Shown: piece after piece, positions 4,926 to 22,338 of the stretch | Layout: each line of letters begins with the position of its first letter | Position numbering within the stretch: the first letter of the stretch is position 1 | Virus genome (UHGV): UHGV-0785299 | Direction: 5' to 3' (one strand) | Length of the DNA stretch: 22,338 nt | Source of the DNA: a virus | The notes under the pieces: model-generated | What the model was told of the DNA's origin: nothing | The model's database searches: none | The model's input: only the letters and a program-made list of their open reading frames with translations | Program-made: the position numbers and the translations under genes

Positions 4926-4999
4926 GATATAGTTCCTGCTATTCAAGTTGGTGTCGTACTGCTTATGGAATGAAGTATAGGGAAGGATATTGAAGAAGT

Positions 5000-5019: not shown

Positions 5020-5031
5020 TATTGAATTATT

Positions 5032-6281: not shown

Positions 6282-6337
6282 GATGGCGTTCCTTATGTTT
6301 TGTCGACTTGCAGCTCGCTTGAGCCTCCTGACAGGGG

Positions 6338-6373
6338 TTAAAAGATAAAGGGCACGTGGTATTTAGTGCCCTT
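6338..6373 (-). terminator. intrinsic terminator-like hairpin (8-bp stem AAGGGCAC/GTGCCCTT) with TATCTTTTAA tract on minus strand
   Basis: Perfect inverted repeat 6348-6355/6366-6373 with 10-nt loop, immediately downstream of the stop at 6379. Confidence 0.45.
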
Positions 6374-6378
6374 CAGCC

Positions 6379-6663: not shown

Positions 6664-6973
6664 ACGTTTGTCTCAGATGTTCAGTAAAGGATTTACCCAG
6701 CTTGCGGAATAGTTTAATACGACCAATGACTTTGACGTAAACATCTCCGTGACAGGGGCGCGGCTTACACCAGCACCCCAATACCTTCCCGTCAAGATCA
6801 AGGAGTTCATCCTCAGTGATATCCCCTTCAATCAGGCGCACATACAGGTCGTCCTCAAACAGTTCGATACAGACGCCTCGTCCATGGTCTTTGACCTCAA
6901 ATGGGTTCCCCCATTTACCGGGACGACCGATGTAGACGTCGTATGGCTCCTTCTTGAAGTGGACGACTTTCAT
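6644..6973 (-). CDS. DUF4326-family protein
   Basis: 109-aa ORF with YIGRPGKWGNPF and GCWCKPRPCHGD motifs characteristic of the DUF4326 family; start ATG 6973 overlaps the stop of the upstream small ORF (ATGA). Confidence 0.6.
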   Translation of the reverse strand: MKVVHFKKEPYDVYIGRPGKWGNPFEVKDHGRGVCIELFEDDLYVRLIEGDITEDELLDLDGKVLGCWCKPRPCHGDVYVKVIGRIKLFRKLGKSFTEHLRQTYVRKQR

Positions 6974-7134
6974 TTCAGGATTTGACCTGCAAGTAGATAA
7001 CAGAAACAGACAGAGAACCCGAGATACCCCAGTGATTTCAGGTAGTTTTTCCTTTCGACTTCACGAGAAAATGCAACGATGTCAATGATGCATGCAAAGA
7101 TCAGTATTGCGAGTTTAATTTGTTCGTAGTTCAT
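6970..7134 (-). CDS. small hydrophobic membrane protein (54 aa)
   Basis: Hand-translated (not in the ORF track): MNYEQIKLAILIFACIIDIVAFSREVERKNYLKSLGYLGFSVCFCYLLAGQILK; two hydrophobic segments; exactly fills the gap between gp46-like stop (7137) and the DUF4326 start with a stop/start overlap. Confidence 0.4.
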   Translation of the reverse strand: MNYEQIKLAILIFACIIDIVAFSREVERKNYLKSLGYLGFSVCFCYLLAGQILK

Positions 7135-7136
7135 GA

Positions 7137-9482: not shown

Positions 9483-10590
9483 CCAGTTTGTTCAGGCGTT
9501 GTTGGGCAGCATTATAGAAGTGCTCTGCTAGTTTACAGACATTGTCGGGGCGCTGAATGTTGTTCCCGGCGCGGATATCCTTCTTCAGGACTTCCACCGC
9601 ATCGGTCGCCACCATCTCTTCGGTGACCTCAACCTTCTCGGCAGCAACAGTAATCGTCCGGTCGATGAAGTTATAGTCAATACACTTGCATCGCTTCATC
9701 GCATCACAGAACTTTTCATAATGCTTAGCATTGTCGCGGTTCTGTACAATAACCTTAACGATTTGCCCTTCAATACCCAAGCCTGTGTTCAACCATTCCG
9801 GGTCGATCCAATTGCCTTCTTCATCAGAGGACAACTTGGTGTAATCATATTCCACATAGCGGAACAGCGTCTGATTCTCGGCGTTTGGGATAAAGATCTC
9901 ACCACCACGCATGTCGTCCACATAGAAGCCACGGTTGGTGCCGTCTTTGTAGTCTTCCCAGTTCAGGTGATACGGAGTCCCAATATATTGAATGTTACCT
10001 TCCATCGAACGGGTATGGAAATGGCCCGTGTCGACCCTGGTAAACTTGGAAAGCAGCGCAACGTCGATCTGACCGTGATCACAAGTAGAAGACTGGTACA
10101 TTTTGAACCCCGCCAGCTCCAGATGCGCAAAACAGTACTCGGCGTCTGTATCTTGTATCGCTTTAATAGACGCATCATAGTTCTCCTTGTTGATCCAAGG
10201 CAGCAGCAGAGTCTTGACACCCTCGATCATCACTTCGGTTGGTTCGCTGTAATAGCAGTACACATCCGGGTCGAGTTCGTTCAGGTAGGATGGCCAGTTG
10301 ATGCGGTTGGACTCTTCCAGGGTGATGTCATGGTTGCCCACGATGCCATTCCACTTGATACCAGCCGCTTTCAGCGCTGGAGTTAATTCATCCTTCAGCC
10401 AGTCTTTGTCGCGCCCGTACATGAATTTGCGGACATCAAACATATCACCGAACTGCCAGACCTCTTTGATATCAGAGTCGGCAAGTTCAGGAATGAAATA
10501 ATTGATGAGATAGTTCTTGATGAAGTCGCGAACGTATCGAGAACCATTACGGCTCCCGATATGCAGATCACCAATTTTAGCAATCGCCAT
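9475..10590 (-). CDS. Mre11/SbcD-family nuclease (T4 gp47-like)
   Basis: 371 aa; calcineurin-like phosphoesterase motifs GDLHIG, GDMFD, GNHD, GHFH in canonical order; immediately upstream of and overlapping the Rad50-like gene, as in T4 genes 47-46. Confidence 0.9.
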   Translation of the reverse strand: MAIAKIGDLHIGSRNGSRYVRDFIKNYLINYFIPELADSDIKEVWQFGDMFDVRKFMYGRDKDWLKDELTPALKAAGIKWNGIVGNHDITLEESNRINWPSYLNELDPDVYCYYSEPTEVMIEGVKTLLLPWINKENYDASIKAIQDTDAEYCFAHLELAGFKMYQSSTCDHGQIDVALLSKFTRVDTGHFHTRSMEGNIQYIGTPYHLNWEDYKDGTNRGFYVDDMRGGEIFIPNAENQTLFRYVEYDYTKLSSDEEGNWIDPEWLNTGLGIEGQIVKVIVQNRDNAKHYEKFCDAMKRCKCIDYNFIDRTITVAAEKVEVTEEMVATDAVEVLKKDIRAGNNIQRPDNVCKLAEHFYNAAQQRLNKLDA

Positions 10591-11318
10591 TATTCTGTTT
10601 CTCCTTCGGTTTCATCTAGTCCGAATTGGGTTTTGCCGAAGTCCTGATCTGAATTGTCTTCGGCCTGCGCTGTTACCGTATTCTTAGCCTGCGCCATGTA
10701 TTGAAGTATGCCTTTCGCAATCTTTTTATTCGATTCTGCGAGACGAGCTGCCTCCACCTTCTCTCGCTCCTTCTGCCTTTGAGCGTCCTTTTTGTTCTCA
10801 AAGTTGCCGATACGTTCACGGAAGTCCATGCCAATTCCTGTAGCATCAACAAAGACCTCTTGTTGGAAGTCGGGATCGTCTGCCAGGCCTGCGAACCCAC
10901 CCGCCTCTTCAAATGAGCGCAATTTAATGTACGTGTGCTCTTCTTCGATGTTCAGTTTACGAGCAAATGATCGATCAGCACACATGGTCACCCAAGAGAA
11001 GAAGTTGATCTTCCCTTTCTTTCCAATGTGTTCGACGTCAAATGTGTGGAGGTAGCGCAGGATATTGACTATTGCTTCAGAGACCATGTCTTCACGGAAG
11101 GGATAGTCGCGATAGTTGTAGCGGGTGCTCATCTTGGTGATGATGCGCTGGACCTGTAGAGCAACATAGTTGGGGATCTTTGGAAGCCTGGTGCCTTCAG
11201 CCAGAGCCTTCTTACGAGCAGGGATCCAATCACGAAGGATACTGATGACACGCTCGTTATCTTCGTCTGTGAAATATTTGACGACATTCTCCCCTCTGTC
11301 CACGAAGTTCATTCCCAT
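10590..11318 (-). CDS. late-transcription sigma factor (T4 gp55-like) with acidic C-terminal extension
   Basis: 242 aa; position directly upstream of the 47/46-like pair matches T4-like gene order; N-terminal half (ISILRDW..., RYNYRDY, ...LHTFD) resembles T4 gp55 from memory; perfect TATAAATA boxes occur in the window; GAGGGA RBS; 1-nt stop/start overlap with the gp47-like gene. Confidence 0.55.
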   Translation of the reverse strand: MGMNFVDRGENVVKYFTDEDNERVISILRDWIPARKKALAEGTRLPKIPNYVALQVQRIITKMSTRYNYRDYPFREDMVSEAIVNILRYLHTFDVEHIGKKGKINFFSWVTMCADRSFARKLNIEEEHTYIKLRSFEEAGGFAGLADDPDFQQEVFVDATGIGMDFRERIGNFENKKDAQRQKEREKVEAARLAESNKKIAKGILQYMAQAKNTVTAQAEDNSDQDFGKTQFGLDETEGETE

Positions 11319-11329
11319 TATGAAATCCC

Positions 11330-11857
11330 TCAGATACCGATAAATTCATCAAAAGATCCAACAACCTTCTTCACCGAGATATTGTCATTCTCAATCAGGA
11401 AGTTGCTGTCGTTTTTGGCTGCTGTAGCCCAGTCATCGGCAAGTTCGTTGCCTTCGTGTCCCGCATGACCCTTAACCCATTTTAGTTCAACTTCACAGAT
11501 TGAACAAACGAGATCATAGATTCTGAACAGATCTTTGATGAGTTCAACGTTCTTTTCTGGGAAACCCTGATACTCCCACTTCGTTCGCCATTCGGTGACA
11601 CTCTTGATGGCATATTGGCTGTCAGACCAAATTGTTGCCTTTGGTATTCTGCGCTCACCCTTTCCTGAGAATGCCCACAGTAGCTTCAATGCGTTGGTCA
11701 CGCCCAACAACTCGGCGATATTGTTAGTGGACGGGGGAGGTAGATGGCCGAAGAACACCTTCCATTGCATACCCGTTATTGGCCTGATAACAAATGCCCA
11801 GCCTGCGGCCTGGTTGGTCTTCGGGTTAGAACCCCCGTCAGAATAAATTTCTATCAT
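11330..11857 (-). CDS. rnhA: ribonuclease HI
   Basis: ORF 11330..11953; preferred start ATG at 11857 (MIEIYSDGGS...). Strong match to E. coli RNase HI catalytic segments: YSDGGS (TDGS), TNNIAELLG (TNNRMELMA), SDSQYA (TDSQYV), KWVKGHAGHEGNELAD (WVKGHAGHPENERCD). Confidence 0.8.
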   Translation of the reverse strand: MIEIYSDGGSNPKTNQAAGWAFVIRPITGMQWKVFFGHLPPPSTNNIAELLGVTNALKLLWAFSGKGERRIPKATIWSDSQYAIKSVTEWRTKWEYQGFPEKNVELIKDLFRIYDLVCSICEVELKWVKGHAGHEGNELADDWATAAKNDSNFLIENDNISVKKVVGSFDEFIGI

Positions 11858-11859
11858 GA

Positions 11860-11867
11860 TATAAATA
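11860..11867 (+). promoter_or_regulatory. T4-type late promoter box TATAAATA (plus strand)
   Basis: Exact TATAAATA at 11860-11867, 35 nt upstream of ATG 11903 with AGAGGA RBS in between; directly abuts the RNase HI start codon on the opposite strand. Confidence 0.55.
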
Positions 11868-11902
11868 TCCCAAACTGGTTTTATAGAAAGAGGAATGAAA
11901 CT

Positions 11903-12670
11903 ATGGCACCCCGCGCATATCGTTTCAGTCTCACCGCCCCGCAGATTGAGCAATTGCTCCTCTCTATCTATGATGCTATCAAGTCAGAAGATATCATCTA
12001 TGATTATGCTGCAGGTGGGACTGCTGGACAAGTCGCAGCAGCGTCTGCTGTCAAGAACATGTGGTTGAAGCTCAACGAGATGGTGACAGGCCAAGGTCTC
12101 AAAGATGCCATCAACGATGCAGAAGACAGCAACGTGTTCACCGACTATTATAAGTCTTTACTGGATCGCGAAGGTTGGAAATTTATTGGATCTCCAGCAG
12201 ATGAACTTCAGCGAGGCGACATCGATACCTCGAACTTCAAAGGTGGTGAGGTCATTCTACTTCAGAAGAACGCTTCGGGCAACCCAGAATTCCAATACTG
12301 GAAGCGAACCCCTGTTGCTGGGGGTGATCCTACCTTTGCATGGGCTTCGGTCTATGAAGGGAACTCTAATGATTCCAGCATAGAGATTCCCGTGGTTGGC
12401 ACCAGCGTACTCAAGGACATCCCCAAGGCACTCTTCCATATGATCGAGTTCAGAGTGCATGTCTACGATGAGACACTGGGTCATTGGCAAGACACCGACG
12501 GGAAGGTGGGGTATCGTGGCGAGGATCTGATCTACAGTGTATACAACCATATTCAGACCAAACCTCTCGCCACCATTGACTTCAGCCAAGATACGGACAA
12601 TATGACGGTTTCTGTGACGTCGTTGGAACCGAATGTCAAGTGCCATCTGTCCTTCGTTGCGGGTTACTAA
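11903..12670 (+). CDS. hypothetical late protein (255 aa), possibly structural
   Basis: ORF 11744..12670; preferred start ATG 11903 (MAPRAYRFSLTAPQ...) because it follows the late-promoter box and RBS and avoids overlap with RNase HI coding sequence; stop overlaps the stop of the convergent helicase gene (CTAA); no motif recognised. Confidence 0.6.
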   Translation: MAPRAYRFSLTAPQIEQLLLSIYDAIKSEDIIYDYAAGGTAGQVAAASAVKNMWLKLNEMVTGQGLKDAINDAEDSNVFTDYYKSLLDREGWKFIGSPADELQRGDIDTSNFKGGEVILLQKNASGNPEFQYWKRTPVAGGDPTFAWASVYEGNSNDSSIEIPVVGTSVLKDIPKALFHMIEFRVHVYDETLGHWQDTDGKVGYRGEDLIYSVYNHIQTKPLATIDFSQDTDNMTVSVTSLEPNVKCHLSFVAGY

Positions 12671-14385
12671 ACCTCAAACACGGCATCAGTGAACCAAGCG
12701 GGGAAGAACTCTGGGTTGCGCATCATAAGTGATTCAAAAGAAGAATCAAGGATGTACGTCGCAGCCCAGTCATTCACGCCCCTGACCGAACGCCCACACA
12801 TCTGAACGATACGCAGTACCGCCATCCTGAAGTACGCCGATGGGTCCACACTGTTGACGTGGGCCACCAGAGGATCACCAAGGTAATCGTATGGCACCTT
12901 GATCAAGATCTGAAATCTGCTATAATCGCCTTTGAAGTCATACCCCTCTTCCATGGCCGGACTGGCGATGACACAAGGCGTCTTCGTCCTGAACGCGTGT
13001 TCCATGATGTCCATCAGAGCCTTACGAGTACGAGGAACGTGAATCATATTCCGGTACTTACTGAACTTTTGTAGAGCCAGGGCGCGGTCATAACTGACTG
13101 TGTGAATGATGCCAGACTGCCCAGGGTGGAACGCGATAATTTCATCCACGTATTCAGCCAGCTTCTTCATCTCGTAGTCACCCATGTTCGCTGTCATCTT
13201 CATGATGGGCATGTAGTTGACTTTCCGGTTCTCAATCGGGATAGGGTTGCCGATCTGTATCTTGTGGTACTCACCCTCGGGGATACCCAGTGACCGGGCG
13301 TACGAGTCAATCCCACAAATGGTAGCCGACATGTGAACGTGGTAGTCACCCTTGCGGAACAGGCCGAACTGGGATACATCAGAGGCGATGACAGGCTTGA
13401 ACTGAATCATACCCTTGTCCTTCTCCTGTACGATGAAAGTGCTGGCGTTGGTCTGCCCCATGATACCACAGTAGTCGCTGAGGTTGTGAAGAGTATCAAT
13501 AATATCAGACAGCTTCATCACCTGGGCTTCAGTCAGGCGCTCGTCCTCTACCAGTTCCTCAAGAGTTTCCAACAGGGCTTCAACCTTGCCGTGCAGTTCA
13601 TCAAATATCGCATGCATCTCACCAGACAGGGAATACAGCTTGCCCAATTCATAGTTCTCTGTGCGGATGATGATATCCTTGATGGTCTCCACGATAGGCA
13701 CTCCCTCAGGGATCGTAAGCAACCCTTCCACAGCCTTTATGTTGTATTCCATGATAGTATGCTCTAGGAGCGTAGAGGGCATTTTATGACACTCGTCAAG
13801 GATCAGCATATCGGCACGGTTTTCCGGCTTCATACAAATCGTCGTACACATCTCCACCATCATGGCGGCGTTGGTGCAGCGCAGGGAGGAGACGTCGGTC
13901 CACTGTCGACGCGCCTGAACATATGGACAACGATTCTTACTACAGTGGCCATCACGGCATGCCATACGGCACTGAATGGCGTTGTAGTATAGGTCGGGGC
14001 TGATGTGGCAACGGTAGTTCTTCTTGCCCTTCAGGATGTCTATCGCCACGGCTTTCTCTGCTGCATACTGATCCTGTAAACCTTTGGTCGGCGTCGTGAT
14101 AGACGTGCGGAACTGACCATACGGGTTGTGCTCAAGAACCAAATGGCGAAGCACGTTATGGATGGTAGTGCCGATGAGGGATTTACCTACACCAGTCGGA
14201 GCCTCGATGATCACGTGTTTGAATTTCTTATTCACAAGGGCATCAATGGCTTCAACGATGCATTCCATCTGGCCGGGGTTGGCGGTGTCATACGGGAAGA
14301 ACTCAGTGGCAAGAGACTTGATGCGGTCTATGCTGACTGGTCCGACGCCGTCAAGCGCCTTGGTATATTGGTTGAATGCTGTCAC
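12667..14385 (-). CDS. DinG/XPD-like superfamily-2 helicase with Fe-S cluster cysteines
   Basis: 572 aa; GTG start with AGGAGGAA RBS; Walker A IEAPTGVGKSLIG; DEAH-type box LILDECHKM; Cys cluster CHISPD ... CRMACRDGHCSKNRCP between them; HMSATICG (SATL-like motif) and GRSVRG near C-terminus. Confidence 0.75.
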   Translation of the reverse strand: MTAFNQYTKALDGVGPVSIDRIKSLATEFFPYDTANPGQMECIVEAIDALVNKKFKHVIIEAPTGVGKSLIGTTIHNVLRHLVLEHNPYGQFRTSITTPTKGLQDQYAAEKAVAIDILKGKKNYRCHISPDLYYNAIQCRMACRDGHCSKNRCPYVQARRQWTDVSSLRCTNAAMMVEMCTTICMKPENRADMLILDECHKMPSTLLEHTIMEYNIKAVEGLLTIPEGVPIVETIKDIIIRTENYELGKLYSLSGEMHAIFDELHGKVEALLETLEELVEDERLTEAQVMKLSDIIDTLHNLSDYCGIMGQTNASTFIVQEKDKGMIQFKPVIASDVSQFGLFRKGDYHVHMSATICGIDSYARSLGIPEGEYHKIQIGNPIPIENRKVNYMPIMKMTANMGDYEMKKLAEYVDEIIAFHPGQSGIIHTVSYDRALALQKFSKYRNMIHVPRTRKALMDIMEHAFRTKTPCVIASPAMEEGYDFKGDYSRFQILIKVPYDYLGDPLVAHVNSVDPSAYFRMAVLRIVQMCGRSVRGVNDWAATYILDSSFESLMMRNPEFFPAWFTDAVFEV

Positions 14386-14435
14386 TTTCTTCCTCCTATG
14401 GGATTCGCCTTTAGTTTAACCGATTCCCAGGAACG

Positions 14436-14470
14436 AAAAAGCCGGAGTACAATGCTCCGGCTTTCTCTTT
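14436..14470. terminator. bidirectional intrinsic terminator hairpin (GCCGGAG/CTCCGGC) flanked by A5 and T-rich tracts
   Basis: 7-bp GC-rich stem 14441-14447/14455-14461 with 7-nt loop; AAAAA upstream and TTTCTCTTTT downstream on plus, giving a U-tract in either direction; sits between the HU-like gene stop and the helicase start. Confidence 0.6.
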
Positions 14471-14513
14471 TGCCATGCCCTGATTGCAGAGCCTGGCCGC
14501 GCGTCAGATAGAA

Positions 14514-14792
14514 TTACTTGCCGTTGGCAGCGTTCTTCAGACCTTCGCCCACTTTGAATTTCACAACGTTTTTCGCCGCGATCTGAATGGTCTGGCCGTT
14601 CAGAGGGTTGCGACCTTCACGCGCTTCTTGGTGTTTCACTTCGAACGCACCGAAGCCGACCAGCTGTACAGATGCGCCTGCAGCAACTGCAGTTTTAACA
14701 CCGTCGATAAAGGATGCCACTACTTTCTCCGCTTCGCCTTTGGTGATATTCTGGGTCGAAGCAATGTGGGCAACAAATTCAGTACGATTCAT
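14514..14792 (-). CDS. HU/IHF-family histone-like DNA-binding protein
   Basis: 92 aa; GFGAFEVKHQEAREGRNPLNGQTIQIAAKNVVKFK is the classic HU beta-arm region; GGAG RBS 9 nt upstream of ATG. Confidence 0.85.
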   Translation of the reverse strand: MNRTEFVAHIASTQNITKGEAEKVVASFIDGVKTAVAAGASVQLVGFGAFEVKHQEAREGRNPLNGQTIQIAAKNVVKFKVGEGLKNAANGK

Positions 14793-14917
14793 CTGGATTT
14801 CTCCGTTGGGTTAATGTTTACTTTCATGTTCACTACAAGAGGGCTACAGTTTAACTAACAAATTTTATTGAATAAAGCGGAATTAATAGCCTTTCACCAC
14901 GATTACAGTCTTTGTGC

Positions 14918-15357
14918 TCATATTTGCTCCGTTTGTTTCTCAACGCCCAGTGCGGCGGCATAGATACCACGAGCCATGCGATCATCACAAAATCCATACG
15001 TGAATAATCCAGCAATGGCATCAAGGCGTTCCTGTGTTGGTGTGACAGGCACAGACACCGTTTGAACTTCAGTCTTTTCGGTGCCTTCCGGTTTCATCAA
15101 GACCTCCATTTCTTGACGACTAACAACAATGGTTTCTACCTTATCTTCATCGATCAACATTTCGTTCAGAAGATCGTATCCCAACACTTGTGTATCGCCG
15201 ATATATGTCTTCGCGTTCAGTTGTGCTTCGATACTTAACACCCTCTGAGCTGTAAGGCCACCAGAGGAGAACGGTACTGGATAGAAGGCGGAACGCACTT
15301 GGGCACACCCATTTACGCTGTAACGAACCAGCAAGACATCACACCATACGCCAGCCA
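14918..15357 (-). CDS. hypothetical protein (146 aa)
   Basis: ORF 14918..15376; preferred start ATG 15357 (MAGVWCDV...) with GGAGGTG RBS 5 nt upstream, 2 nt after the stop of the upstream gene. Confidence 0.55.
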
Positions 15358-15359
15358 TA

Positions 15360-16022
15360 TTACACCTCCACCGCATGAGACTTCAGGAGTTCATCAATCT
15401 CTTTCTGCCCCATGTATGAGAACGGGGTGCGCTGGTAGAACGCCCAGAGTACTAACTGGACAACAGCACGGGAACGGGTTTCGGCCGTCATCACCAGGCC
15501 ACTGAAATGAGGAGACTCAGCTGTCCATTGTATCTCTTCGCCCAGGTCTTGATTACAGGTCACCGAGATGCGGAACTTGTTGCACAGATTGTCGACTTCT
15601 TTGTACGCATCGGTAGACACACGAAGTTGTTCCGCATGTGCCCACGGAGTTGTGACGATTCTTTCACCCAACGTCTTTTCTGAAACGAACCAATCAATAG
15701 ATTGGGTAAACTCGCTAAAATGGTCGATACGATAAATACAGTCTCCCCCTTCCATAGAACGCATGGCATGATAGCGAGCGTCAATTTCATTGTTGTGCAT
15801 AGCGTTGAAGTCGATGAACACGCGACGCGCCAGCACAACATCTTCTGGTTGAAGTGCCAGGAAATCGTTCAGGCGGCTATAATGGAGGATATTGGAACCG
15901 TCGTGGCCACGTGTGCAATATGCGTAATAGCTACCGATACGGGTGTGGGTAATATAAGACAACGGGGCGAAGAATAATCCGTCAGGATCAGGACCGACGA
16001 TAATAGAATAAAGTTTTTCCAT
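15360..16022 (-). CDS. hypothetical protein (220 aa)
   Basis: ORF 15360..16121; preferred start ATG 16022 (MEKLYSIIVGPD...) which avoids overlap with the upstream gene; start choice uncertain; no motif recognised. Confidence 0.5.
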   Translation of the reverse strand: MEKLYSIIVGPDPDGLFFAPLSYITHTRIGSYYAYCTRGHDGSNILHYSRLNDFLALQPEDVVLARRVFIDFNAMHNNEIDARYHAMRSMEGGDCIYRIDHFSEFTQSIDWFVSEKTLGERIVTTPWAHAEQLRVSTDAYKEVDNLCNKFRISVTCNQDLGEEIQWTAESPHFSGLVMTAETRSRAVVQLVLWAFYQRTPFSYMGQKEIDELLKSHAVEV

Positions 16023-16078
16023 GATATAGTCACTCAAATGAAAGGGCAGCTTTATGATAAGCCGCCCGAGGTTATTGA

Positions 16079-16945
16079 TTATTGGAAATCGCCAACATAC
16101 ATGTTCAGCTTGTCGTCCCAATTCAGAACGACACGGATCGTTCCAGTATCTTCTGGGAAGGTCAGTTTGTCACACATGGCGCGATTAACATAAGTCCCGC
16201 TCTGGTTGACGTTGTAGTCCTTGCCTTGCATGATACCAAAACGCTTGAAGTCGCGAGTGACCATCATGTTCAGAGTTGTCCAAGGGATTGTATCGCGCAG
16301 GGCTTTGCACAGGACGATCTTGCCATCCGACCTGAACGACACAAACAGCTCGTTGGCGACACGACGGCGAGTAGGCGGTTCAAGTTCACGCAGGGAAATG
16401 AATTGTGAATTCTTTACCTTTTCTGCCAGCGCCTGTACTTCTGCTGGATCCGGCTTGAACGGCTCCACTGAAGAGTCAGACTTCATCACAACGTCACCCT
16501 TGCGCTTCTCAACCAATTGCTCCACAGCCTTTTGACTCACGGGAGGGAGGTATTTGGACTTAGGAACAACCGCTGGCTTGATGACAGGGCTTGCATCTGG
16601 TTTCGCCTTTGGAGTACTCCGAGCCGCACGCAGCTTTTCCTGGGCTTGTAGAATGCGCTCTTGACGAGAAAGCGGAGCCTTTGGGGTGATCTTCGTACTG
16701 AAGTCAGAAACGCCGACCCAGTCACCCTGGTCGTTGCGCTTGGCGACCAGGGTCAGTTTGTGGATGATACCCTGAAGTTTGCTCTCACGTAAGTTGTCGG
16801 CATACCAGAACTTCGCGCCCATCTCGAACTTCTCGGCGAAGATCACGCGAGCGTCTTCGTGTACCAACATAACTTTGGCTGCGTTGGGGGCAAAAGCCTT
16901 ATTCTTTTCGATAATCGCCGCAGCGATTGTTTTGGTCAGGAGCAT
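16079..16945 (-). CDS. hypothetical protein (288 aa), basic Lys/Pro-rich central linker
   Basis: ORF 16079..16948 (GTG) with ATG at 16945; central low-complexity segment STPKAKPDASPVIKPAVVPKSKYLPPVSQK between two globular-looking halves. Confidence 0.6.
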   Translation of the reverse strand: MLLTKTIAAAIIEKNKAFAPNAAKVMLVHEDARVIFAEKFEMGAKFWYADNLRESKLQGIIHKLTLVAKRNDQGDWVGVSDFSTKITPKAPLSRQERILQAQEKLRAARSTPKAKPDASPVIKPAVVPKSKYLPPVSQKAVEQLVEKRKGDVVMKSDSSVEPFKPDPAEVQALAEKVKNSQFISLRELEPPTRRRVANELFVSFRSDGKIVLCKALRDTIPWTTLNMMVTRDFKRFGIMQGKDYNVNQSGTYVNRAMCDKLTFPEDTGTIRVVLNWDDKLNMYVGDFQ

Positions 16946-16984
16946 CACAGTGTATTCCTTCAGTTCACAATGTAGGGCTAAATT

Positions 16985-17311
16985 TTAACCCGAAACTTTA
17001 TTTTGAAATCCGACAAAGTCCTGGGCAATCCCCCGACAATACATCAGGTCTTTCTTCGTTTGTGGACTGTTATCAGCCGCAGTCAGCATCATGGGAAGAT
17101 CCAGCGCATTCTCTATCTGATCAACACTGAACAGATCAAGGCGCTTCAGCTCCCCCTCGAAGTCGGACAGGAGGATAGATGTGTCTTTGTCATCTGGGTG
17201 GAACTGCTGATACGTCTCCATCCATGCCACACATGTGTTCAGTTTGGACGGTGGCGCGGCGTTTACACACCCGGCTATCAGTACCAACAAGAGCAGGATT
17301 TTACATTTCAT
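16985..17311 (-). CDS. lipoprotein (candidate superinfection-exclusion or envelope protein)
   Basis: MKCKILLLLVLIAGCVNAAPP: signal peptide ending in a lipobox (LIAGC); ATG 17311 overlaps the stop of the upstream gene (TGATG). Confidence 0.65.
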   Translation of the reverse strand: MKCKILLLLVLIAGCVNAAPPSKLNTCVAWMETYQQFHPDDKDTSILLSDFEGELKRLDLFSVDQIENALDLPMMLTAADNSPQTKKDLMYCRGIAQDFVGFQNKVSG

Positions 17312-17997
17312 CACTCGTTCTCCTTCATCATATTGTCGCAGTCAACACGAGTCTGCTGGAGTTCGCGCGACATGCGGGGATCATCAAGGTTCACGCTCAG
17401 ATTCGTGGCCAGGTCTTTCAGACCGTTCTGAACACGATCCTCAAAATAATAATCGTTCTCAACCAGCCAGGCTCTGAGACCAAGAGCGCGGGTGCGCCAT
17501 TCCTTCTTCAGGACGCGATCAGAGGTCTGCGTGGCGCTGTATTCGAATACTTTGACGCACTGGTTGCCATCGTTGATGAGGTTCAGGTGGCGGCGACCAA
17601 CCTGCACACCCTTCTGTAATGCCGGAGAAGGGAGCGAACGGCACTGTCTGACTGTCATTCGGCCTTGGGTGCCCATTCGGCCAGTCATGATTAAATCGCC
17701 AGCCTCCATGCCTCCACGGTTAAATTCGTCGTCATTGAGGTAGCCTTTGAGGTTATAGGCTCCCTGTTTGTAACGGTTGAACTCAATTCCGGCATTGACG
17801 ACAGCAGTGGAGACGTTGCCTGTGTTCCAGAGTTCAGCGAAGTTCTCTATGGAACCAGACTTGTCGATGGCAACCGCCTGGGAGAACCCAGCACAATAGG
17901 AAAGGTCGGACCACAGTTTATCACCTGTGGAGTTCAGCTTGGCAGCGGCGGGTAATGCCAGACCAGCCAGCACAACCCCGAGGATTAAACGTTTCAT
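17311..17997 (-). CDS. secreted hypothetical protein (228 aa)
   Basis: ORF 17311..18162; preferred start ATG 17997 (MKRLILGVVLAGLALPAAA...) gives a typical cleavable signal peptide; GGAGAA RBS upstream. Confidence 0.6.
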   Translation of the reverse strand: MKRLILGVVLAGLALPAAAKLNSTGDKLWSDLSYCAGFSQAVAIDKSGSIENFAELWNTGNVSTAVVNAGIEFNRYKQGAYNLKGYLNDDEFNRGGMEAGDLIMTGRMGTQGRMTVRQCRSLPSPALQKGVQVGRRHLNLINDGNQCVKVFEYSATQTSDRVLKKEWRTRALGLRAWLVENDYYFEDRVQNGLKDLATNLSVNLDDPRMSRELQQTRVDCDNMMKENE

Positions 17998-18076
17998 GGC
18001 GATTCTCCTTATTTCATTGGATGAAATGATAGGCGGCTCACCATGTTGAGTAAAGGGATTCAATAAACTATCGTAT

Positions 18077-18526
18077 TCAGAAACGGGTATCACTGACCGT
18101 TCTGTATCGCACACCCTGAAACTGTTTAGCGAGTTTAACAAATTCCATCGCTGGCAAATCAACTTTGTAGACCTTCATGCGCTGTTTGCCGTCCATGTTC
18201 AACGCAGCGACAAATCGGTGAGAACCGTCAACAACGTAATTGTCAGAAGACACCCAAACTCGACCCATAGGTTTCTTATTTCTGATCTGCTTCATAATCT
18301 TCCAGACCTTCATTTTATTGATTTCGTTCTGGGTAAGACGAAGCATTTTGATGGGCACTTGCACAGCATCTATGGACACGCCGTTGTCTTCAAGATATTT
18401 GTGAAAATCTTCTTGTTTGTCGGCATCGATTTGCGGCATAGAAGAACGAGAAAGCCCGAGGTTCCCAACAGGAATCCTCAGGCCGTTAATGATGTTCAAC
18501 CAGTCAATAAAAGATGTAAGGAACAT
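18077..18526 (-). CDS. hypothetical protein, possible ParB/Srx-like nuclease fold
   Basis: 149 aa; VVDGSHRFVAA resembles the DGxHR core of ParB N-terminal-domain nucleases; otherwise unassigned. Confidence 0.5.
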   Translation of the reverse strand: MFLTSFIDWLNIINGLRIPVGNLGLSRSSMPQIDADKQEDFHKYLEDNGVSIDAVQVPIKMLRLTQNEINKMKVWKIMKQIRNKKPMGRVWVSSDNYVVDGSHRFVAALNMDGKQRMKVYKVDLPAMEFVKLAKQFQGVRYRTVSDTRF

Positions 18527-18558
18527 GACACACCTCGGGATATAGGGTTATCCCTTAG

Positions 18559-18750
18559 TTAGCGCATCCATCGATCCTTTCTCTCTTTCTCCTTGCGTTC
18601 GCGACGTTTCTGATCGGATCGGAATAACCAATAGAAGAAGTTCCCACCCAAGATGAAAACCACCGCGATTATTACTAGGACACCCTTCACAATTTCCCAA
18701 ACCAATTCTTTATCCAAATTATACCTCGTCTTCTTCAGGTCCACCGTCAA
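18559..18750 (-). CDS. small membrane protein (one TM helix, basic C-tail)
   Basis: 63 aa; hydrophobic stretch VKGVLVIIAVVFILGGNFFYWLF followed by KRRERKEKERKDRWMR; start may be later than 18750 because it overlaps the upstream ORF. Confidence 0.45.
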   Translation of the reverse strand: MTVDLKKTRYNLDKELVWEIVKGVLVIIAVVFILGGNFFYWLFRSDQKRRERKEKERKDRWMR

Positions 18751-19006
18751 TCAGGATACGAGCGGTGTCGAAAGTTTCCCCGCCCGTGTTCAACAGCTTG
18801 GTTAGATCATCAAGAGTACCGACAGGACCAAGATCAGCCTGGCGGAGAACGAACTCGAGAAGCCCGTAGAGCGCTGATTGGAATCGGCTGTTGTCGATAT
18901 CGTTCTTTATTACCATCAGGCGTAAGATGTTCTCTGACTGAGTATGGCCAACACACGCCTTGTCTCTGATCATCTCCTTGATAGAACTTCTCTCGGATGG
19001 TGTCAT
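18719..19006 (-). CDS. hypothetical protein or C-terminal continuation of the 18834..19376 gene after a frameshift
   Basis: 95-aa ORF that overlaps the 3-prime 172 nt of the 18834..19376 ORF in another frame; its translation looks more protein-like than the Arg/Pro/Ser-rich tail of the other frame. Confidence 0.4.
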   Translation of the reverse strand: MTPSERSSIKEMIRDKACVGHTQSENILRLMVIKNDIDNSRFQSALYGLLEFVLRQADLGPVGTLDDLTKLLNTGGETFDTARILIDGGPEEDEV

Positions 19007-19376
19007 AAGTACCCCCGACAGAGATCAAGAACTCTTCTTGCATGGTCTTGACCGGGTGGTGGTTGCGGGTTTCGAACATGAAGCCCCAGCCACCGTCGGC
19101 GACGTTGCCAAAGGTCTTGACGCCAAAGGACTTCGTCCCGTTGGAGCAGGAATAGATGTCCAGGACGTATGGGCTACCCTGATTGTCGATCCCACGATTC
19201 ACGTCGTCTGATACGCAGCGCTCAATCATCTTCCCGTTCTTATACAGAACGAGGTCTTGGCCATACGCCTTGAAAGCATAAACACCGTTGGTAGACACTC
19301 CGGTGATGACAGGAGGGGCGGAAACAGCAGCAAAGGAAGCGCCCAGCAGGGCAACAGCGAGGATTAACTTTTTCAT
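18834..19376 (-). CDS. secreted hypothetical protein (possible frameshifted gene)
   Basis: ATG 19376 gives signal peptide MKKLILAVALLGASFAAVSAPP, similar in style to the 17997 gene; C-terminal about 50 aa (…GVCWPYSVREHLTPDGNKERYRQQPIPISALRASRVRSPPG) looks out-of-frame. Confidence 0.5.
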   Translation of the reverse strand: MKKLILAVALLGASFAAVSAPPVITGVSTNGVYAFKAYGQDLVLYKNGKMIERCVSDDVNRGIDNQGSPYVLDIYSCSNGTKSFGVKTFGNVADGGWGFMFETRNHHPVKTMQEEFLISVGGTYDTIREKFYQGDDQRQGVCWPYSVREHLTPDGNKERYRQQPIPISALRASRVRSPPG

Positions 19377-19400
19377 GATATAGTCTCTTGGTTTCAAATG

Positions 19401-19422
19401 GGCGGGGTATGATTACCCCGCC
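19401..19422 (-). terminator. GC-rich hairpin (GGCGGGG/CCCCGCC) between two minus-strand genes
   Basis: Perfect 7-bp inverted repeat with 8-nt loop; only moderate T-richness flanking, so could be a terminator or an RNA structural element. Confidence 0.4.
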
Positions 19423-19428
19423 GTGGGT

Positions 19429-19935
19429 TTATAGGGTAACAAGTGATACGGTAAAAACCATCGTCCCGTCTGTTGCCATTTTTCTTGAAACTGGTATGAC
19501 GCGAGGCTGGCAGAATATCCATTCTTTCTCCATGGACGCCAAGTCCAGCATATCCATTTCTGATTCATCGCCTTTGTTCACAAATTTTTCTAGAGAACCA
19601 TAGACATTAAGCCCCTCCGGGATTCTGTTTCGATGTTTGTAACAAATGCGGGCAACAGCTTGGGTTCCGTACGATTTAGAAAATTTTTTGGCCACATGCT
19701 TCAGTTCACTGAAGCTAAGGCAAGAATCCCATGTCTGGAACATGTCGCCTCGTTCAAACATCATCCCTAAACGCGCAACGTCCTCTTTAGGCAACCCGCG
19801 ATAAAGTGTGGTCGTCTGTGGTTCGCGCAATTCTTGCACCAGATCACGGACGGCAGGGGAAACAGTACCGGGGCGCATGATGTGGGACTTATCATGGACG
19901 AGGTAAAATAAATCTTGAATTTGTTGATCGGTCAT
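19429..19935 (-). CDS. hypothetical protein (168 aa); speculative ADP-ribosyltransferase-like R / S-x-S / E-x-E pattern
   Basis: ORF 19429..20070; preferred start ATG 19935 (MTDQQIQDLF...). TLYRG, DSCLSFS and EKEW occur in the order expected for R-S-EXE toxins, but spacing is atypical. Confidence 0.45.
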   Translation of the reverse strand: MTDQQIQDLFYLVHDKSHIMRPGTVSPAVRDLVQELREPQTTTLYRGLPKEDVARLGMMFERGDMFQTWDSCLSFSELKHVAKKFSKSYGTQAVARICYKHRNRIPEGLNVYGSLEKFVNKGDESEMDMLDLASMEKEWIFCQPRVIPVSRKMATDGTMVFTVSLVTL

Positions 19936-19954
19936 GGTATAGTTCCTGCCTTCC

Positions 19955-20194
19955 TTGGTGAAGCCAGAAGACACTGTGAGCGTTCTGTATTTCTCCTCCA
20001 AAGGCGACTTTGGTACTGTGTTCGCTGGCCGCCAGATCAATGCAGCATCCGACCTGAGCGAAATCAACAAACTGATCGACCGTTTCCTGCAACCATCCGG
20101 CTGTACTGGTTTCGTTGAGCCATTGAAACTGGCGATGGATACTGCTCGTGGCCTGAGAAGCCTGGCTACGTCACAACCTGGCGTTCATGACTGA
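19955..20194 (+). pseudogene. fragment of a vWA-domain gene (frame-disrupted)
   Basis: TTG-initiated ORF encoding VSVLYFSS...GCTGFVEPLKLAMDTARGL...QPGV, which looks like the central strands and helices of a von Willebrand A domain; the expected next motif (FMTDGYDN) is encoded immediately downstream but in another frame (20184-20207), and frame-2 stops occur at 20192 and 20201. Confidence 0.45.
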
Positions 20195-20317
20195 CGGGTA
20201 TGACAACTGCTGGCGTACCACGAAATTCTACTGGTTGCTGAGACCCTGCCATTTGCTTTCGATAACATTACTTTCATCGAATATGGCTGGTACTGTAACC
20301 GAGAACTGCTGGCGCAG

Positions 20318-21487
20318 ATGGCCGAACTCTCTGGTGCTACTCACGTGTTTGCCGAAGGTCAGACCGAATACCAGACCGAACTGGAAAACGTGCTGAAGTC
20401 ATCAGTGCCGAAGGTGGTTGTTGATGTGCCTCTGCTATACACCCACGCCATCTATGTTGAAAACGGCGTAGCAACTGTTCTGGCGGTACAGCCGGATGAA
20501 GACCATCCTATCGGCCACGTGAGCATCCCTGAGAGCGTCACCAAGCTGTGGGTTGTAAACCCTAACATGATCGACCAGATGGATAGCCTGACGGACATCC
20601 AGGCGGCATATGTGCTGGCGTTCTACGGTGTACACACTATGGACGCAGATCTGGTTTGGGCTGCGCTGAAGAAGACGGGCGACGTTCGCTTCATCAAACA
20701 GTACAGCAACTGCTTCACCAAGCAGGACTACTCCAACATCAAGAACGATCTGGTACAGGCGATTGTTGACGACCAGCTGCGCGGCGTTGACGGTATTGAC
20801 TATGACCTGGTTCCAGCTGAAGATGCGACCACCGTCGTTGATGTGCTGACGTACCTGGCTGAAGCTGGTGTGCCTGTTGCTACCAAGCATCCGATGTTCT
20901 CCTACAAGAGCATCGGGCGCGGTACTGTGCAGAAAACCGACGACACCGAAGACAAGCTGGCAGAACAGATCGCGAATGCTCAGTCCAAAGAAGAGCGTAA
21001 AGCCCTGGCTCTCAAGCTGGCAGAGCACGAAGAGTGGAACCCGACGTTCGAACCTACCAACGATCTGGGTGTTGTGCCAATCAGTGATTTGGTCTATAAC
21101 TCCGAGCGCCCGAACATCAGTGTGCGTACAATTCAACACGGTACTGTGGCTGTGCCTGAATTCGCACAGAAGAAGTTTGGCCTGCCTGAAGAACTGGATA
21201 CTTTCCAGTGGCGCAACTACACCATCGTCAAAGACGGTATCATTAACGTGAAGACTCTGCCGTTCAAGGCTGATATCGAAGTCGTGCATAAGCTGATCGA
21301 AATGGGCGTCCACGTGTTTGGTGGTCCAGAAGTGTTTGTCCTGAACCTGGAAAGCGTACCGCTGGTCAACCGCGCCATGGTCAAGAACATCAGTGCTGCT
21401 CAGTTCTTTGCGGATAATGTCCGTCTGGAAGCCCTGAAAAGGCAAGCAGAAGGTGCTGAAGTTCTATCGAGACGCCCTGGTTGGTAA
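20318..21487 (+). CDS. central part of the vWA-domain protein (open frame actually extends upstream to 20204)
   Basis: 389-aa ORF in the same frame as the 19955 fragment; protein-like translation continues upstream of the first ATG back to 20204; ends 5 codons after an A4 run where a +1 shift joins it to the next ORF. Confidence 0.6.
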   Translation: MAELSGATHVFAEGQTEYQTELENVLKSSVPKVVVDVPLLYTHAIYVENGVATVLAVQPDEDHPIGHVSIPESVTKLWVVNPNMIDQMDSLTDIQAAYVLAFYGVHTMDADLVWAALKKTGDVRFIKQYSNCFTKQDYSNIKNDLVQAIVDDQLRGVDGIDYDLVPAEDATTVVDVLTYLAEAGVPVATKHPMFSYKSIGRGTVQKTDDTEDKLAEQIANAQSKEERKALALKLAEHEEWNPTFEPTNDLGVVPISDLVYNSERPNISVRTIQHGTVAVPEFAQKKFGLPEELDTFQWRNYTIVKDGIINVKTLPFKADIEVVHKLIEMGVHVFGGPEVFVLNLESVPLVNRAMVKNISAAQFFADNVRLEALKRQAEGAEVLSRRPGW

Positions 21488-22058
21488 GGGTAACGCCAAA
21501 GGCCTGGCAGTACAGTACGGCGCTGAGGCGGCCGAGTTCCTGTCCTCCTACGGCATCCGCGATTACGGCTTCTCACCGAAGACTGAGACCAAAGAGTCTA
21601 CCGACTTCTACATGAGCCGTGAGCTGAACGTGAAGATCGCCGGGGCGTCTTCACTACCGAGCATCGCGGCAGTACAGAAGAAGATCGCAGAGAACAAGAA
21701 ACTCAATGCTGGTGACTTGTTCATCGCCAATGCTCTGAAAGAGTACGAAGCATTCGTGAAGTCTCCTATGATCACTGCCGTGCCTGAAGCCTTACAGAAA
21801 CAGCTGATCGAAAACTGGATCGACGCTGCTGCCAAGGCGGCCATCACCGAAGTCCGTGCCCTGAACAAGACACTGTCTAAAGTGGTGTATGGTATCGTTG
21901 CTGGCCACGGCTGGTTCACCGACCTCGACCTGGAAGAGTCCACCATGGAAGTTGAAGTGGATGGCGTGAAGTACAAGGTCACTGCCGAACTGACAGAGAA
22001 AGAAAATCAAAATCTAATCCAACGGGCGGGGCAACCCGCCTTTCTTTGGGAGAAGTAG
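21453..22058 (+). CDS. C-terminal part of the same protein (reached by a +1 shift at 21437-21440)
   Basis: GTG-initiated ORF; skipping one A of the AAAA run at 21437-21440 fuses ...NVRLEALK to GKQKVLKFYRDALVGKGNAKG... without a stop; last codons overlap a terminator hairpin. Confidence 0.55.
   Translation: MLKFYRDALVGKGNAKGLAVQYGAEAAEFLSSYGIRDYGFSPKTETKESTDFYMSRELNVKIAGASSLPSIAAVQKKIAENKKLNAGDLFIANALKEYEAFVKSPMITAVPEALQKQLIENWIDAAAKAAITEVRALNKTLSKVVYGIVAGHGWFTDLDLEESTMEVEVDGVKYKVTAELTEKENQNLIQRAGQPAFLWEK
22025..22047 (+). terminator. intrinsic terminator (GGCGGG/CCCGCC stem, GCAA tetraloop, TTTCTTT tract)
   Basis: Perfect 6-bp GC stem 22025-22030/22035-22040 with GNRA-type loop followed by a T-rich run; overlaps the last codons of the upstream ORF and precedes the RBS GGGAGAAG of the next gene. 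Confidence 0.55.
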
Positions 22059-22059
22059 C

Positions 22060-22338
22060 ATGAGCAGTAAACCAACATATGTTGAAGTCATGCGTCATCT
22101 GGCTCAGTACGCCACTGACAATCTGAATATGGATCTGTGGCGTGACGATGACAAGCGCAAATTGCTGGACGACGTGGCATCTCAGAACGAGGACGCCCTG
22201 GACAAGCTGGCTGGTCTCCGTACCAAGAAAGACCTCGGCGGTGACGAACTGGATGCCATCGAAATCGTAATGGAACTAGAAGAAGAGTTTCAGGTCGAAA
22301 TCGACGACGGTTGGCTGGGTAGTAAAGGTGATGACCCG
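22060..22338 (+). CDS. acyl-carrier-protein-like protein with Glu at the expected phosphopantetheine-attachment Ser position (C-terminus runs off the window)
   Basis: ATG 22060 with GGGAGAAG RBS; hand translation ...KKDLGGDELDAIEIVMELEEEFQVEIDDG closely parallels the ACP core [27 protein letters not shown] (recalled from memory), with the attachment Ser replaced by Glu. Confidence 0.6.
   Translation, partial: MSSKPTYVEVMRHLAQYATDNLNMDLWRDDDKRKLLDDVASQNEDALDKLAGLRTKKDLGGDELDAIEIVMELEEEFQVEIDDGWLGSKGDDP

What the first reader, a model, noticed from the sequence alone, without database searches (positions are those of the whole stretch)
19862..22058. A vWA-domain gene is split into at least three frame-shifted pieces, one break at an A4 run
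Three consecutive plus-strand ORFs (19955-20194, 20318-21487, 21453-22058) read as one protein. The first encodes central vWA-like elements (VSVLYFSS, GCTGFVEPLKLAMD) and the expected downstream motif FMTDGYDN is present but in a different frame at 20184-20207. Two frame-2 stops (20192, 20201) separate it from the protein-like frame that resumes at 20204. At 21437-21440 (CTG AAA AGG) skipping one A joins the second and third ORFs seamlessly. Possible N-terminal vWA remnants also lie in other frames at 19862-19911, partly overlapped by the minus-strand gene ending at 19935. This is either a decaying pseudogene, homopolymer sequencing error, or a gene expressed through programmed frameshifting or transcriptional slippage.
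Basis: partly seen in the sequence, partly recalled or inferred. Interest (0 to 1): 0.6.

Follow-up and report, generated by a model that had tools for sequence, protein, structure and literature searches.

The report
Phage vWA gene broken by sequencing errors
The "split" gene is an ordinary, conserved phage gene that looks broken mainly because the assembly miscounted single A's in five short A-runs, and its start is missing because the last 2.4 kb is joined on backwards, probably an amplification chimera.

Summary
The three ORFs exist and are consecutive pieces of one conserved Ackermannviridae protein (phrog_2426; 733 aa, N-terminal vWA domain). Every relative examined encodes it as one ORF. 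The window differs from 15 distinct relatives at exactly five one-base A indels: AA->A at 20156/57, 20173/74 and 20220/21, and AAA->AAAA at 21437-40 and 22003-06. Repairing them gives a stop-free 690-codon ORF with mostly synonymous differences from relatives.

Other assemblies of the same phage (Logan ERR975170; GCA_001292545.1, CYGL01) show no substitutions against the window, only one-base indels, nearly all in homopolymer runs. One of them, CYGL01007592.1, carries the intact AA at all three upstream sites. The frameshifts are therefore consensus errors, not decay or recoding.

The fifth indel creates a false 14-codon tail that runs through the terminator. Homology to the gene also begins abruptly at 19945, 128 nt inside it. 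From there the 2.4-kb arm is inverted relative to all relatives, joined at a 5-nt microhomology to a site 2.85 kb away. That matches a multiple-displacement-amplification chimera, though a real inversion is not excluded. The supposed N-terminal remnants at 19862-19911 belong to the intact minus-strand ADP-ribosylase-like gene. Interest is low.

The parts
19429..19935 (-). Intact 168-aa gene (RNA polymerase ADP-ribosylase-like, phrog_832).
   Evidence: ORF. phrog_832 E=1.3e-14. An identical protein occurs in 3 other contigs. Collinear and 97-99% identical to relatives up to 19949-19952.
19945..19949 (.). Junction of the inverted arm, at the 5-nt microhomology CCTGC shared by both parental sites. 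To its left is the upstream region of the 168-aa gene. To its right is nt 129 onward of the vWA ORF in inverted orientation.
   Evidence: Three-way alignment. The two sites are 2847 nt apart in AV101 and 2844 nt apart in L006. No junction-spanning match in 50,697 GenBank phages, IMG/VR or GTDB genomes. The same junction is present in CYGL01007592.1.
19946..20156 (+). vWA-gene codons 44 to about 114 in the ancestral frame (window frame 2).
   Evidence: phrog_2426 positions 48-116.
20156..20221 (+). Three one-base under-calls (AA read as A) at 20156/57, 20173/74 and 20220/21. The ancestral frame goes 2 -> 1 -> 3 -> 2. FMTDGYDN (20184-20207) lies in the frame-3 stretch.
   Evidence: All 15 distinct relatives have the extra A. 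No relative shares the window's version. The same-phage contig CYGL01007592.1 has AA at all three sites.
20221..21436 (+). vWA-gene middle part in the ancestral frame (frame 2 again).
   Evidence: phrog_2426 positions 170-548.
21437..21440 (+). A4 run where relatives have A3 (one-base over-call). It shifts the ancestral frame from 2 to 3.
   Evidence: 15 of 15 relatives lack the extra A. 14 relatives match the repaired context exactly and none matches the window's. The repaired protein is gap-free against P0022.
   Evidence: phrog_2426 positions 553-733. 100% identical to P0022 over the roughly 190 codons after 21437.
22003..22006 (+). It moves the true stop TAA (22015-22017) out of frame, so ORF3 runs on to 22058.
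   Evidence: Repaired translation ends ...TEKEIKI* as in relatives.
22024..22049 (+). Intrinsic-terminator-like hairpin plus T-run downstream of the true stop. It lies inside ORF3's artificial tail.
   Evidence: Terminators are annotated at this place in phages Marshall and Maynard.
22060..22338 (+). Acyl carrier protein gene (first 93 of 107 codons), cut by the end of the window. It is the normal downstream neighbour of the vWA gene.
   Evidence: phrog_4154 E=2.1e-48. Annotation of relatives.

Best explanation
The phage carries the ordinary single-ORF, 733-codon vWA-domain gene of Ackermannviridae (phrog_2426). The window shows it in pieces because of two artefacts in how this contig was made.

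(1) Five one-base miscounts of A in A2/A3 runs. These are flow-type (454-like) homopolymer errors that survived in a very low-coverage contig end. They shift the frame 2 -> 1 -> 3 -> 2 -> 3 -> 1. That produces three apparent ORFs and a false 14-codon C-terminal extension (18 new codons replace the last four).

(2) The terminal 2.4 kb (19945-22338) is joined in inverted orientation to the upstream region of the 168-aa gene, at a 5-nt microhomology 2.85 kb from its true neighbour. This is most likely a chimeric molecule made during multiple displacement amplification of the virome DNA. It removes the gene's first 128 nt from the contig.

Shown: the indels, their absence in relatives and (for three of them) in another contig of the same phage, the inversion, and the microhomology.

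Inferred: that the junction is an in-vitro chimera rather than a real rearrangement, and that the library was MDA/454. The library method is recalled from memory of the study behind CYGL01.
For: Orthologues are single ORFs:
- 158 GenBank phage records match, each with one CDS under the match.
- The CDS is 2202 nt in RPN242 and AV101.
- A 733-aa gene followed by the ACP gene is called in about 13 further contigs.
- 154 homologues have E<=1e-30, and full-length ones are roughly 680-790 aa.

The window is the odd one out:
- It differs from 15 distinct relatives by exactly five one-base A indels.
- No relative shares any of the window's versions.
- Repair gives a stop-free 690-codon ORF.
- Against RPN242 there are 38 synonymous and 10 nonsynonymous codon differences, with 41 of 53 changed bases at codon position 3.
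- The repaired protein is 479/482 identical and gap-free to P0022 across both downstream sites.

Other assemblies of the same phage:
- Logan ERR975170_46: 0 mismatches and 3 one-base gaps over 13.4 kb.
- CYGL01000374.1: 0 mismatches and 2 one-base indels over 10.5 kb.
- CYGL01007592.1: 0 mismatches and 7 one-base indels over 1.25 kb, with the intact AA at 20157, 20174 and 20221.
- At every such disagreement, one version matches the relatives (plus for the 1421-1428 cluster).
- Window-specific indels are enriched about tenfold in the last 2.4 kb (binomial P=0.0015).
- Other assemblies break at about 18.1 kb and 19.2 kb, which points to thin coverage there.

The junction:
- It is inverted, 2847 nt from its true neighbour, with a 5-nt overlap.
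- It is absent from 50,697 phage records, IMG/VR and GTDB genomes.
- Lasken & Stockwell 2007 (PMC1855051) found that 85% of MDA chimeras are inversions, mostly less than 10 kb apart, with 2-21 nt complementarity. Chimeras made up 495 of 108,944 reads in 454 data.
- CYGL01 is listed as 'Assembly HumMal, Ma_F259_Contig_...'.
Against: The junction is present in two contigs, the window and CYGL01007592.1, whose consensus sequences differ. If they come from independent amplifications, the rearrangement would be real.

No alternative assembly covers 20505-22338, so the last two indels are called errors only by comparison with relatives and by the selection signature.

I could not read the original study, so MDA and 454 are from memory.

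One window-specific indel (19009, a lone C) and one on the alternative contig (19678, a lone A) are not in homopolymer runs.
Confidence: 0.75

Rival explanations
1. The inversion is a real structural variant of this gut phage. Microhomology-mediated inversion of about 2.85 kb would split the vWA gene 128 nt from its start. The five one-base indels would still be sequencing errors. The phage would then be a natural vWA knock-out, or a defective sub-population.
For: The same junction occurs in two contigs with different consensus errors. A 5-nt microhomology fits illegitimate recombination as well as it fits MDA template switching.
Against: The junction is unique among more than 400 related records and about 25 metagenomic contigs, all of which have the collinear arrangement. 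The junction has every hallmark of the commonest MDA chimera. The two contigs may derive from the same reads. The inverted gene fragment shows no sign of relaxed selection, so any real event would have to be very recent.
Confidence: 0.18
2. A genuine decaying pseudogene: the truncation and all five frameshifts are real mutations in the phage genome.
For: There are multiple disruptions in one gene plus loss of its 5' end.
Against: Three of the five indels are absent from another contig of the same phage. The same kind of one-base indel separates assemblies of this phage elsewhere, including in intergenic hairpins. There are 38 synonymous against 10 nonsynonymous codon differences, no in-frame stops after repair, and 100% identity to a relative over the 190 codons downstream of the 21437 shift.
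Confidence: 0.05
3. Recoding: the product is made by programmed ribosomal frameshifting or transcriptional slippage. An example would be a +1 shift at AAA-AGG-C (21438-21444), where AGG is a rare codon.
For: With the extra A, the sequence CUG AAA AGG C formally resembles +1 sites of the Ty1 type. That comparison is from my own knowledge. A +1 slip of tRNA-Lys there would restore the ancestral sequence.
Against: The A4 run is unique to the window. 15 of 15 relatives have A3 and need no shift. The other four sites have no slippery context, and three of them are demonstrably errors. A4 is far too short for transcriptional slippage. The gene also lacks its start codon here.
Confidence: 0.01

Closest known systems
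The conserved 'vWFA domain-containing protein' of Ackermannviridae (phrog_2426), e.g. UHS65538.1 of Escherichia phage vB_EcoM-RPN242, WJJ54091.1 of phage AV101, XPQ57356.1 of Yersinia phage CAU_YEP3
   Same: 97.6% nucleotide identity to RPN242 over 19945-22338. The downstream acyl carrier protein gene and the terminator are the same. The repaired translation aligns end to end from residue 44.
   Different: In the window the first 43 codons are absent and five one-base A indels break the frame. The gene arm is inverted relative to its neighbours.
Homopolymer-length errors of flow-based sequencing (454 / Ion Torrent) in low-coverage consensus
   Same: The differences between assemblies of the same phage are indels only and one base each, nearly all at runs of the same base, with no substitutions. 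They cluster where coverage is thin.
   Different: The runs are short (A2, A3), and two of the fourteen sites (19009 and 19678) are not homopolymers. The sequencing platform was not verified here.
Inverted chimeras of multiple displacement amplification (Lasken & Stockwell 2007, PMC1855051)
   Same: Inverted orientation, partner sites 2.85 kb apart (under 10 kb), and a 5-nt complementary overlap at the junction.
   Different: No read-level evidence is available. The junction appears in two contigs, so a real rearrangement cannot be excluded.
Programmed +1 frameshift sites (prfB CUU UGA C; Ty1 CUU AGG C), cited from my own knowledge
   Same: The heptamer-like AAA AGG C has a rare AGG codon, and a +1 shift there would restore the protein.
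   Different: It is not conserved in any orthologue and not needed by them. It is created solely by the extra A.

Membership tests
von Willebrand factor type A domain (Pfam PF00092/PF13768/PF13519) | Profile match above Pfam's gathering score | tested here: not met
   The window's three ORFs and the repaired 690-aa protein give no Pfam hit at E<=0.01. The full-length orthologue from RPN242 scores 29.3 bits (cut-off 23.8, E=1.2e-6) over residues 20-184. The match depends on the N-terminal 43 residues that the window lacks.
von Willebrand factor type A domain (Pfam PF00092/PF13768/PF13519) | MIDAS motif D-x-S-x-S near the N-terminus | tested here: not met
   Orthologues have VVDISGSMY at residues 22-30. 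Its coding sequence lies in the 128 nt missing upstream of 19945.
von Willebrand factor type A domain (Pfam PF00092/PF13768/PF13519) | Downstream MIDAS-associated T/D elements (e.g. ...FMTDG...) | tested here: met
   FMTDGYDN is encoded at 20184-20207, in frame 3 because of the flanking one-base deletions.
phrog_2426 (Ackermannviridae 733-aa protein, function unknown) | Profile match over the length of the family model | tested here: met
   ORF1 matches 48-116 (E=3e-33), ORF2 matches 170-548 (E=6e-175) and ORF3 matches 553-733 (E=3e-82) of 736 positions. The orthologue matches 2-736.
Programmed frameshift / transcriptional slippage gene | Split frames and slippery site conserved in orthologues | tested here: not met
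   15 of 15 distinct relatives have a single ORF and A2/A3 at the five sites. 154 homologues were found, with full-length ones about 680-790 aa.
Programmed frameshift / transcriptional slippage gene | Long homopolymer (about 7 or more A/T) for polymerase slippage, or a canonical slippery heptamer with a stimulator | tested here: not met
   The runs are A1 (from A2) and A4 (from A3). Only AAA AGG C loosely resembles a +1 site.
Decaying pseudogene | Disruptions reproducible in independent sequence of the same genome | tested here: not met
   CYGL01007592.1 (same phage, 0 mismatches) has the intact AA at 20157, 20174 and 20221. The other two sites are not covered by any second assembly.
Decaying pseudogene | Relaxed selection (substitutions spread over codon positions, in-frame stops) | tested here: not met
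   38 synonymous against 10 nonsynonymous codon differences; 41 of 53 changed bases at position 3; no stops after repair. 479/482 identity to P0022.
MDA inverted chimera | Second segment inverted, partner sites under 10 kb apart, 2-21 nt complementarity at the junction | tested here: met
   Inverted. 2847 nt apart with a CCTGC overlap. Criteria are from PMC1855051.
MDA inverted chimera | Library made by MDA; junction supported by few reads while the normal adjacency is also present | not testable with these tools
   No read data are available. The study behind CYGL01 ('HumMal, Ma_F259') could not be read. MDA/454 is my recollection.
Flow-sequencing homopolymer error | Assemblies of the same genome differ by one-base run-length indels and not by substitutions | tested here: met
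   0 mismatches with 3, 2 and 7 one-base indels over 13.4, 10.5 and 1.25 kb. Of the fourteen sites examined, counting the two vWA sites that no second assembly covers, 12 lie in runs of 2 or more.

The most novel reading that the evidence does not exclude
The inversion is real. A gut Ackermannviridae phage population from a Malawian child would then carry a microhomology-mediated 2.85-kb inversion that severs the conserved vWA gene from its start codon, promoter side and MIDAS motif. That would be a natural knock-out, showing this universally conserved but uncharacterised gene to be dispensable, or marking a defective sub-population.
Probability: 0.18. Interest if true: 0.25.

Novelty: not a real feature. 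Interest (0 to 1): 0.07.

Why it matters
It matters mainly as quality control. This contig's last 3-4 kb should not be used for gene calling, pseudogene counts or recoding screens. Split genes at short homopolymers in old virome assemblies are a predictable false positive.

The case also shows that an inverted contig end joined at a few bases of microhomology is a warning sign of an amplification chimera.

The underlying gene is biologically interesting in its own right, but it is already known. It is a 733-aa vWA protein conserved next to an acyl carrier protein gene, and in some relatives close to NAD-salvage genes. No function has been demonstrated for it.

Tried and rejected
Searches for the junction:
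- Exact junction searches (45-mer and 19-mer) in IMG/VR found nothing.
- The 45-mer search in GTDB genomes found nothing.
- A blastn of 19700-20200 against 50,697 phage records found no record spanning the junction.

Searches for the window's source contig:
- Exact-protein look-ups of the window's ORF1, ORF2, ORF3 and the frameshifted 180-aa ORF found nothing on record. The window's own contig is therefore not in those collections.

Search for the normal adjacency in the same assembly:
- I tried to find the 168-aa gene to 79-aa gene adjacency through homologues of the 79-aa protein.
- I abandoned this. The candidate sequences sit on dozens of contigs, and cluster members may not be accepted for look-up.

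Literature:
- The original virome paper is not held.
- Searches for the accession numbers gave only a table naming CYGL01 as 'HumMal, Ma_F259'.
- Reviews did not state its methods.

Other:
- A PDB sequence search with the full-length orthologue gave nothing significant.
- Structure prediction was not run because it would not bear on the question.
- Programmed frameshifting and pseudogene decay were considered and rejected on orthologue and selection evidence.
- The promoter scan shows only chance-level matches.
Full report
**What the window is.** The window is DNA of an Ackermannviridae (Aglimvirinae-like) phage.
- Positions 1-19944 are collinear with Escherichia phage AV101 (OQ973471, 74706-94354, + strand, 97% identity) and many other relatives.
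- Positions 19945-22338 match the same genomes at 95-97.6% identity, but on the opposite strand (AV101 97206-94812).
- In AV101 the genes in this region all lie on one strand, in the order vWA gene (2202 nt), acyl carrier protein, a 79-aa gene, a 168-aa gene and onward.
- The same order was called in about 13 metagenomic and genomic contigs recovered by exact-protein look-ups.
- Each of those contigs has one 733-aa vWA gene.

**Checking the observation.** The three plus-strand ORFs are present at the stated coordinates.
- They match consecutive parts of one family, phrog_2426: ORF1 to profile positions 48-116, ORF2 to 170-548 and ORF3 to 553-733 of 736.
- FMTDGYDN is encoded at 20184-20207 in frame 3.
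- The core of the observation therefore holds. The pieces are far more than chance.

**The exact lesions.** I aligned the window with 15 distinct relatives. The window differs by exactly five window-specific indels, each a single A:
- A missing at 20156/57 (CTGAAG read as CTGAG).
- A missing at 20173/74 (GTCAAC read as GTCAC).
- A missing at 20220/21 (ACCAAC read as ACCAC).
- A extra in 21437-40 (AAA read as AAAA).
- A extra in 22003-06 (AAA read as AAAA).

The three deletions sum to -3, which explains why ORF1 and ORF2 share frame 2. The ancestral frame runs 2 -> 1 -> 3 -> 2 -> 3 -> 1.

It pushes the true stop (TAA, 22015-22017) out of frame. ORF3 then reads on for 14 extra codons, straight through the terminator hairpin at 22024-22041.

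Repairing the five sites gives a stop-free 690-codon ORF ending ...TEKEIKI*, as in relatives.

**The missing 5' end.** Homology to the vWA gene starts abruptly at 19945, which is 128 nt inside the orthologous ORF.
- The start codon and the first 43 codons are not in the window. These include the MIDAS D-I-S-G-S motif (VVDISGSMY in RPN242).
- That gene matches phrog_832 (RNA polymerase ADP-ribosylase, E=1.3e-14).
- It is collinear and 97-99% identical with relatives up to 19949-19952.
- The left parent reads ...GGTATAGTTCCTGCATTTCAAA.... The right parent reads ...GGAGAACCTGCC(T/A)TCCCTGG....
- They share CCTGC (19945-19949). In AV101 the two sites are 2847 nt apart and in inverted orientation.

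**Are the frameshifts real?** Exact-protein look-ups and one metagenome scan recovered other assemblies of the same phage:

| Assembly | Window span | Mismatches | One-base indels |
|---|---|---|---|
| Logan ERR975170_46 | 1061-14513 | 0 | 3 (in a GC hairpin at 1421-1428) |
| CYGL01000374.1 (GCA_001292545.1) | 8718-19203 | 0 | 2 |
| CYGL01007592.1 | 19256-20504 | 0 | 7 |

- The last contig carries the intact AA at all three upstream vWA sites. It has four run-length errors of its own at 19335, 19678, 19772 and 20012.
- At 11 of the 14 sites checked, the version that disagrees with the relatives is found in no relative. Context matching failed for the three clustered sites at 1421-1428. There AV101 and the Logan contig carry the bases the window lacks.
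- Assemblies of this one phage therefore differ only by single-base run-length indels and never by substitutions. This is the signature of flow-type sequencing errors.
- The window-specific indels are about ten times denser in the last 2.4 kb than in 1061-19944 (5 of 9; binomial P=0.0015).
- The other assemblies break at about 18.1 kb and 19.2 kb, so coverage there was evidently very thin.

**Selection signature.** Against RPN242, the repaired ORF has 38 synonymous and 10 nonsynonymous codon differences. 41 of 53 changed bases are at codon position 3.
- The repaired ORF is 479/482 identical and gap-free to P0022 from an E. coli assembly.
- It is 100% identical over the roughly 190 codons downstream of the 21437 shift.
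- A gene that had really been frameshifted and truncated for any length of time would not look like this.
- The last two indels are not covered by a second assembly. They are called errors on this evidence and on 15 of 15 relatives.

**Recoding.** With the extra A, the sequence CUG AAA AGG C loosely resembles +1 sites with a rare AGG codon (a comparison from my own knowledge).
- The A4 is unique to the window, and orthologues need no shift.
- The other sites have no slippery context, and three of them are proven errors.
- A4 is too short for transcriptional slippage, and the gene has no start here.
- I give recoding about 1%.

**The junction.** A 5-nt overlap cannot mislead an assembler by itself. 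A physical molecule or read with this join must have existed.
- The join is unique. No record among 50,697 GenBank phages spans it. IMG/VR and GTDB genomes lack it.
- CYGL01 is listed in a later paper as 'Assembly HumMal, Ma_F259_Contig_...' (PMC10888812).
- I recall this as the Malawian-twin gut virome study of Reyes et al. 2015. As I remember it, virus-like-particle DNA was amplified by MDA and sequenced by 454. The paper is not held, so this is unverified.
- Lasken & Stockwell (PMC1855051) analysed MDA chimeras in 454 reads. 85% were inversions, mostly between sites less than 10 kb apart. 93.5% of those had complementarity of at least 2 nt, and overlaps ran up to 21 nt. Chimeras were 495 of 108,944 reads.
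- The window's junction meets all three sequence criteria.
- Against this, the junction is seen in two contigs with different consensus errors. That could mean independent support, or it could mean the same chimeric read combined with different neighbouring reads.
- I estimate about 75-80% chimera and about 20% real inversion.

**What the gene is.** Full-length orthologues pass Pfam VWA (PF00092, 29.3 bits against a cut-off of 23.8, residues 20-184).
- The remaining 550 or so residues have no Pfam family and no significant PDB sequence match.
- The window's pieces alone, and even the repaired 690-aa protein, do not reach any Pfam threshold.
Orthology to vWA-annotated proteins is nevertheless unambiguous.

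**Verdict.**
- The gene is a known, conserved, single-ORF phage gene.
- Its apparent splitting comes from five homopolymer miscalls in a low-coverage contig end.
- The loss of its 5' end comes from an inverted join that is most probably an amplification chimera.
- Interest is low. The only mildly novel reading left open is a real inversion that knocks out the gene.

Noticed in passing
window 19003-19397 (-), indel at 19009: A lone C is missing at 19009 relative to 18 relatives and to CYGL01000374.1 of the same phage. This abolishes the stop of the 124-aa gene, so it reads on as a 180/187-aa ORF (18834-19397) overlapping the next gene. It is another consensus error of the same contig end, not a gene fusion.
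   Followed up: yes
window 1415-1432: The intergenic GC hairpin (terminator-like) has three run-length under-calls (C5->C4, G4->G3, T3->T2) relative to the Logan assembly of the same phage and to AV101. The shortened stem still pairs.
   Followed up: partly
window 1436-4513 (-): This large protein is 1025 aa here against 906 aa in AV101, with a non-homologous block at about 3556-3934. An exact copy was found only in Logan ERR975170. It has no Pfam domain on record. It may be a variable host-interaction or anti-defence protein.
   Followed up: no
window 19429-19935 (-): The 168-aa RNA polymerase ADP-ribosylase-like gene (phrog_832, matching only the C-terminal part of a 1480-position profile) is present in some close relatives (AV101, fGh-Ecl02, ZQ1, MK-13). 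It is absent from others (RPN242, A221, YX22), where homology stops at 19422. It looks like a small accessory-gene indel polymorphism.
   Followed up: partly
window 10590-11318 (-), break at 10604-10623: The gp55-like late sigma factor occurs in two length variants among relatives (242 aa as here, 263 aa in AV101). A short non-alignable stretch sits at its 3' end, overlapping the neighbouring gene.
   Followed up: no
L006 4186-6701, L017 2247-4762, AV101 97645-100160: Some relatives carry nicotinamide phosphoribosyltransferase and ribose-phosphate pyrophosphokinase genes (NAD salvage) one small gene (71 aa) upstream of the vWA-ACP pair. Others have unrelated small genes there. The vWA-ACP pairing itself is constant.
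   Followed up: no
CYGL01 contigs L023 and L009 against the window: In GCA_001292545.1 the 19-kb contig ends at window 19203 and the 1.25-kb junction contig starts at 19256, leaving a 52-nt gap. The Logan contig ends near 18137. This indicates a local coverage trough over about 18-20 kb in this phage's data.
   Followed up: partly
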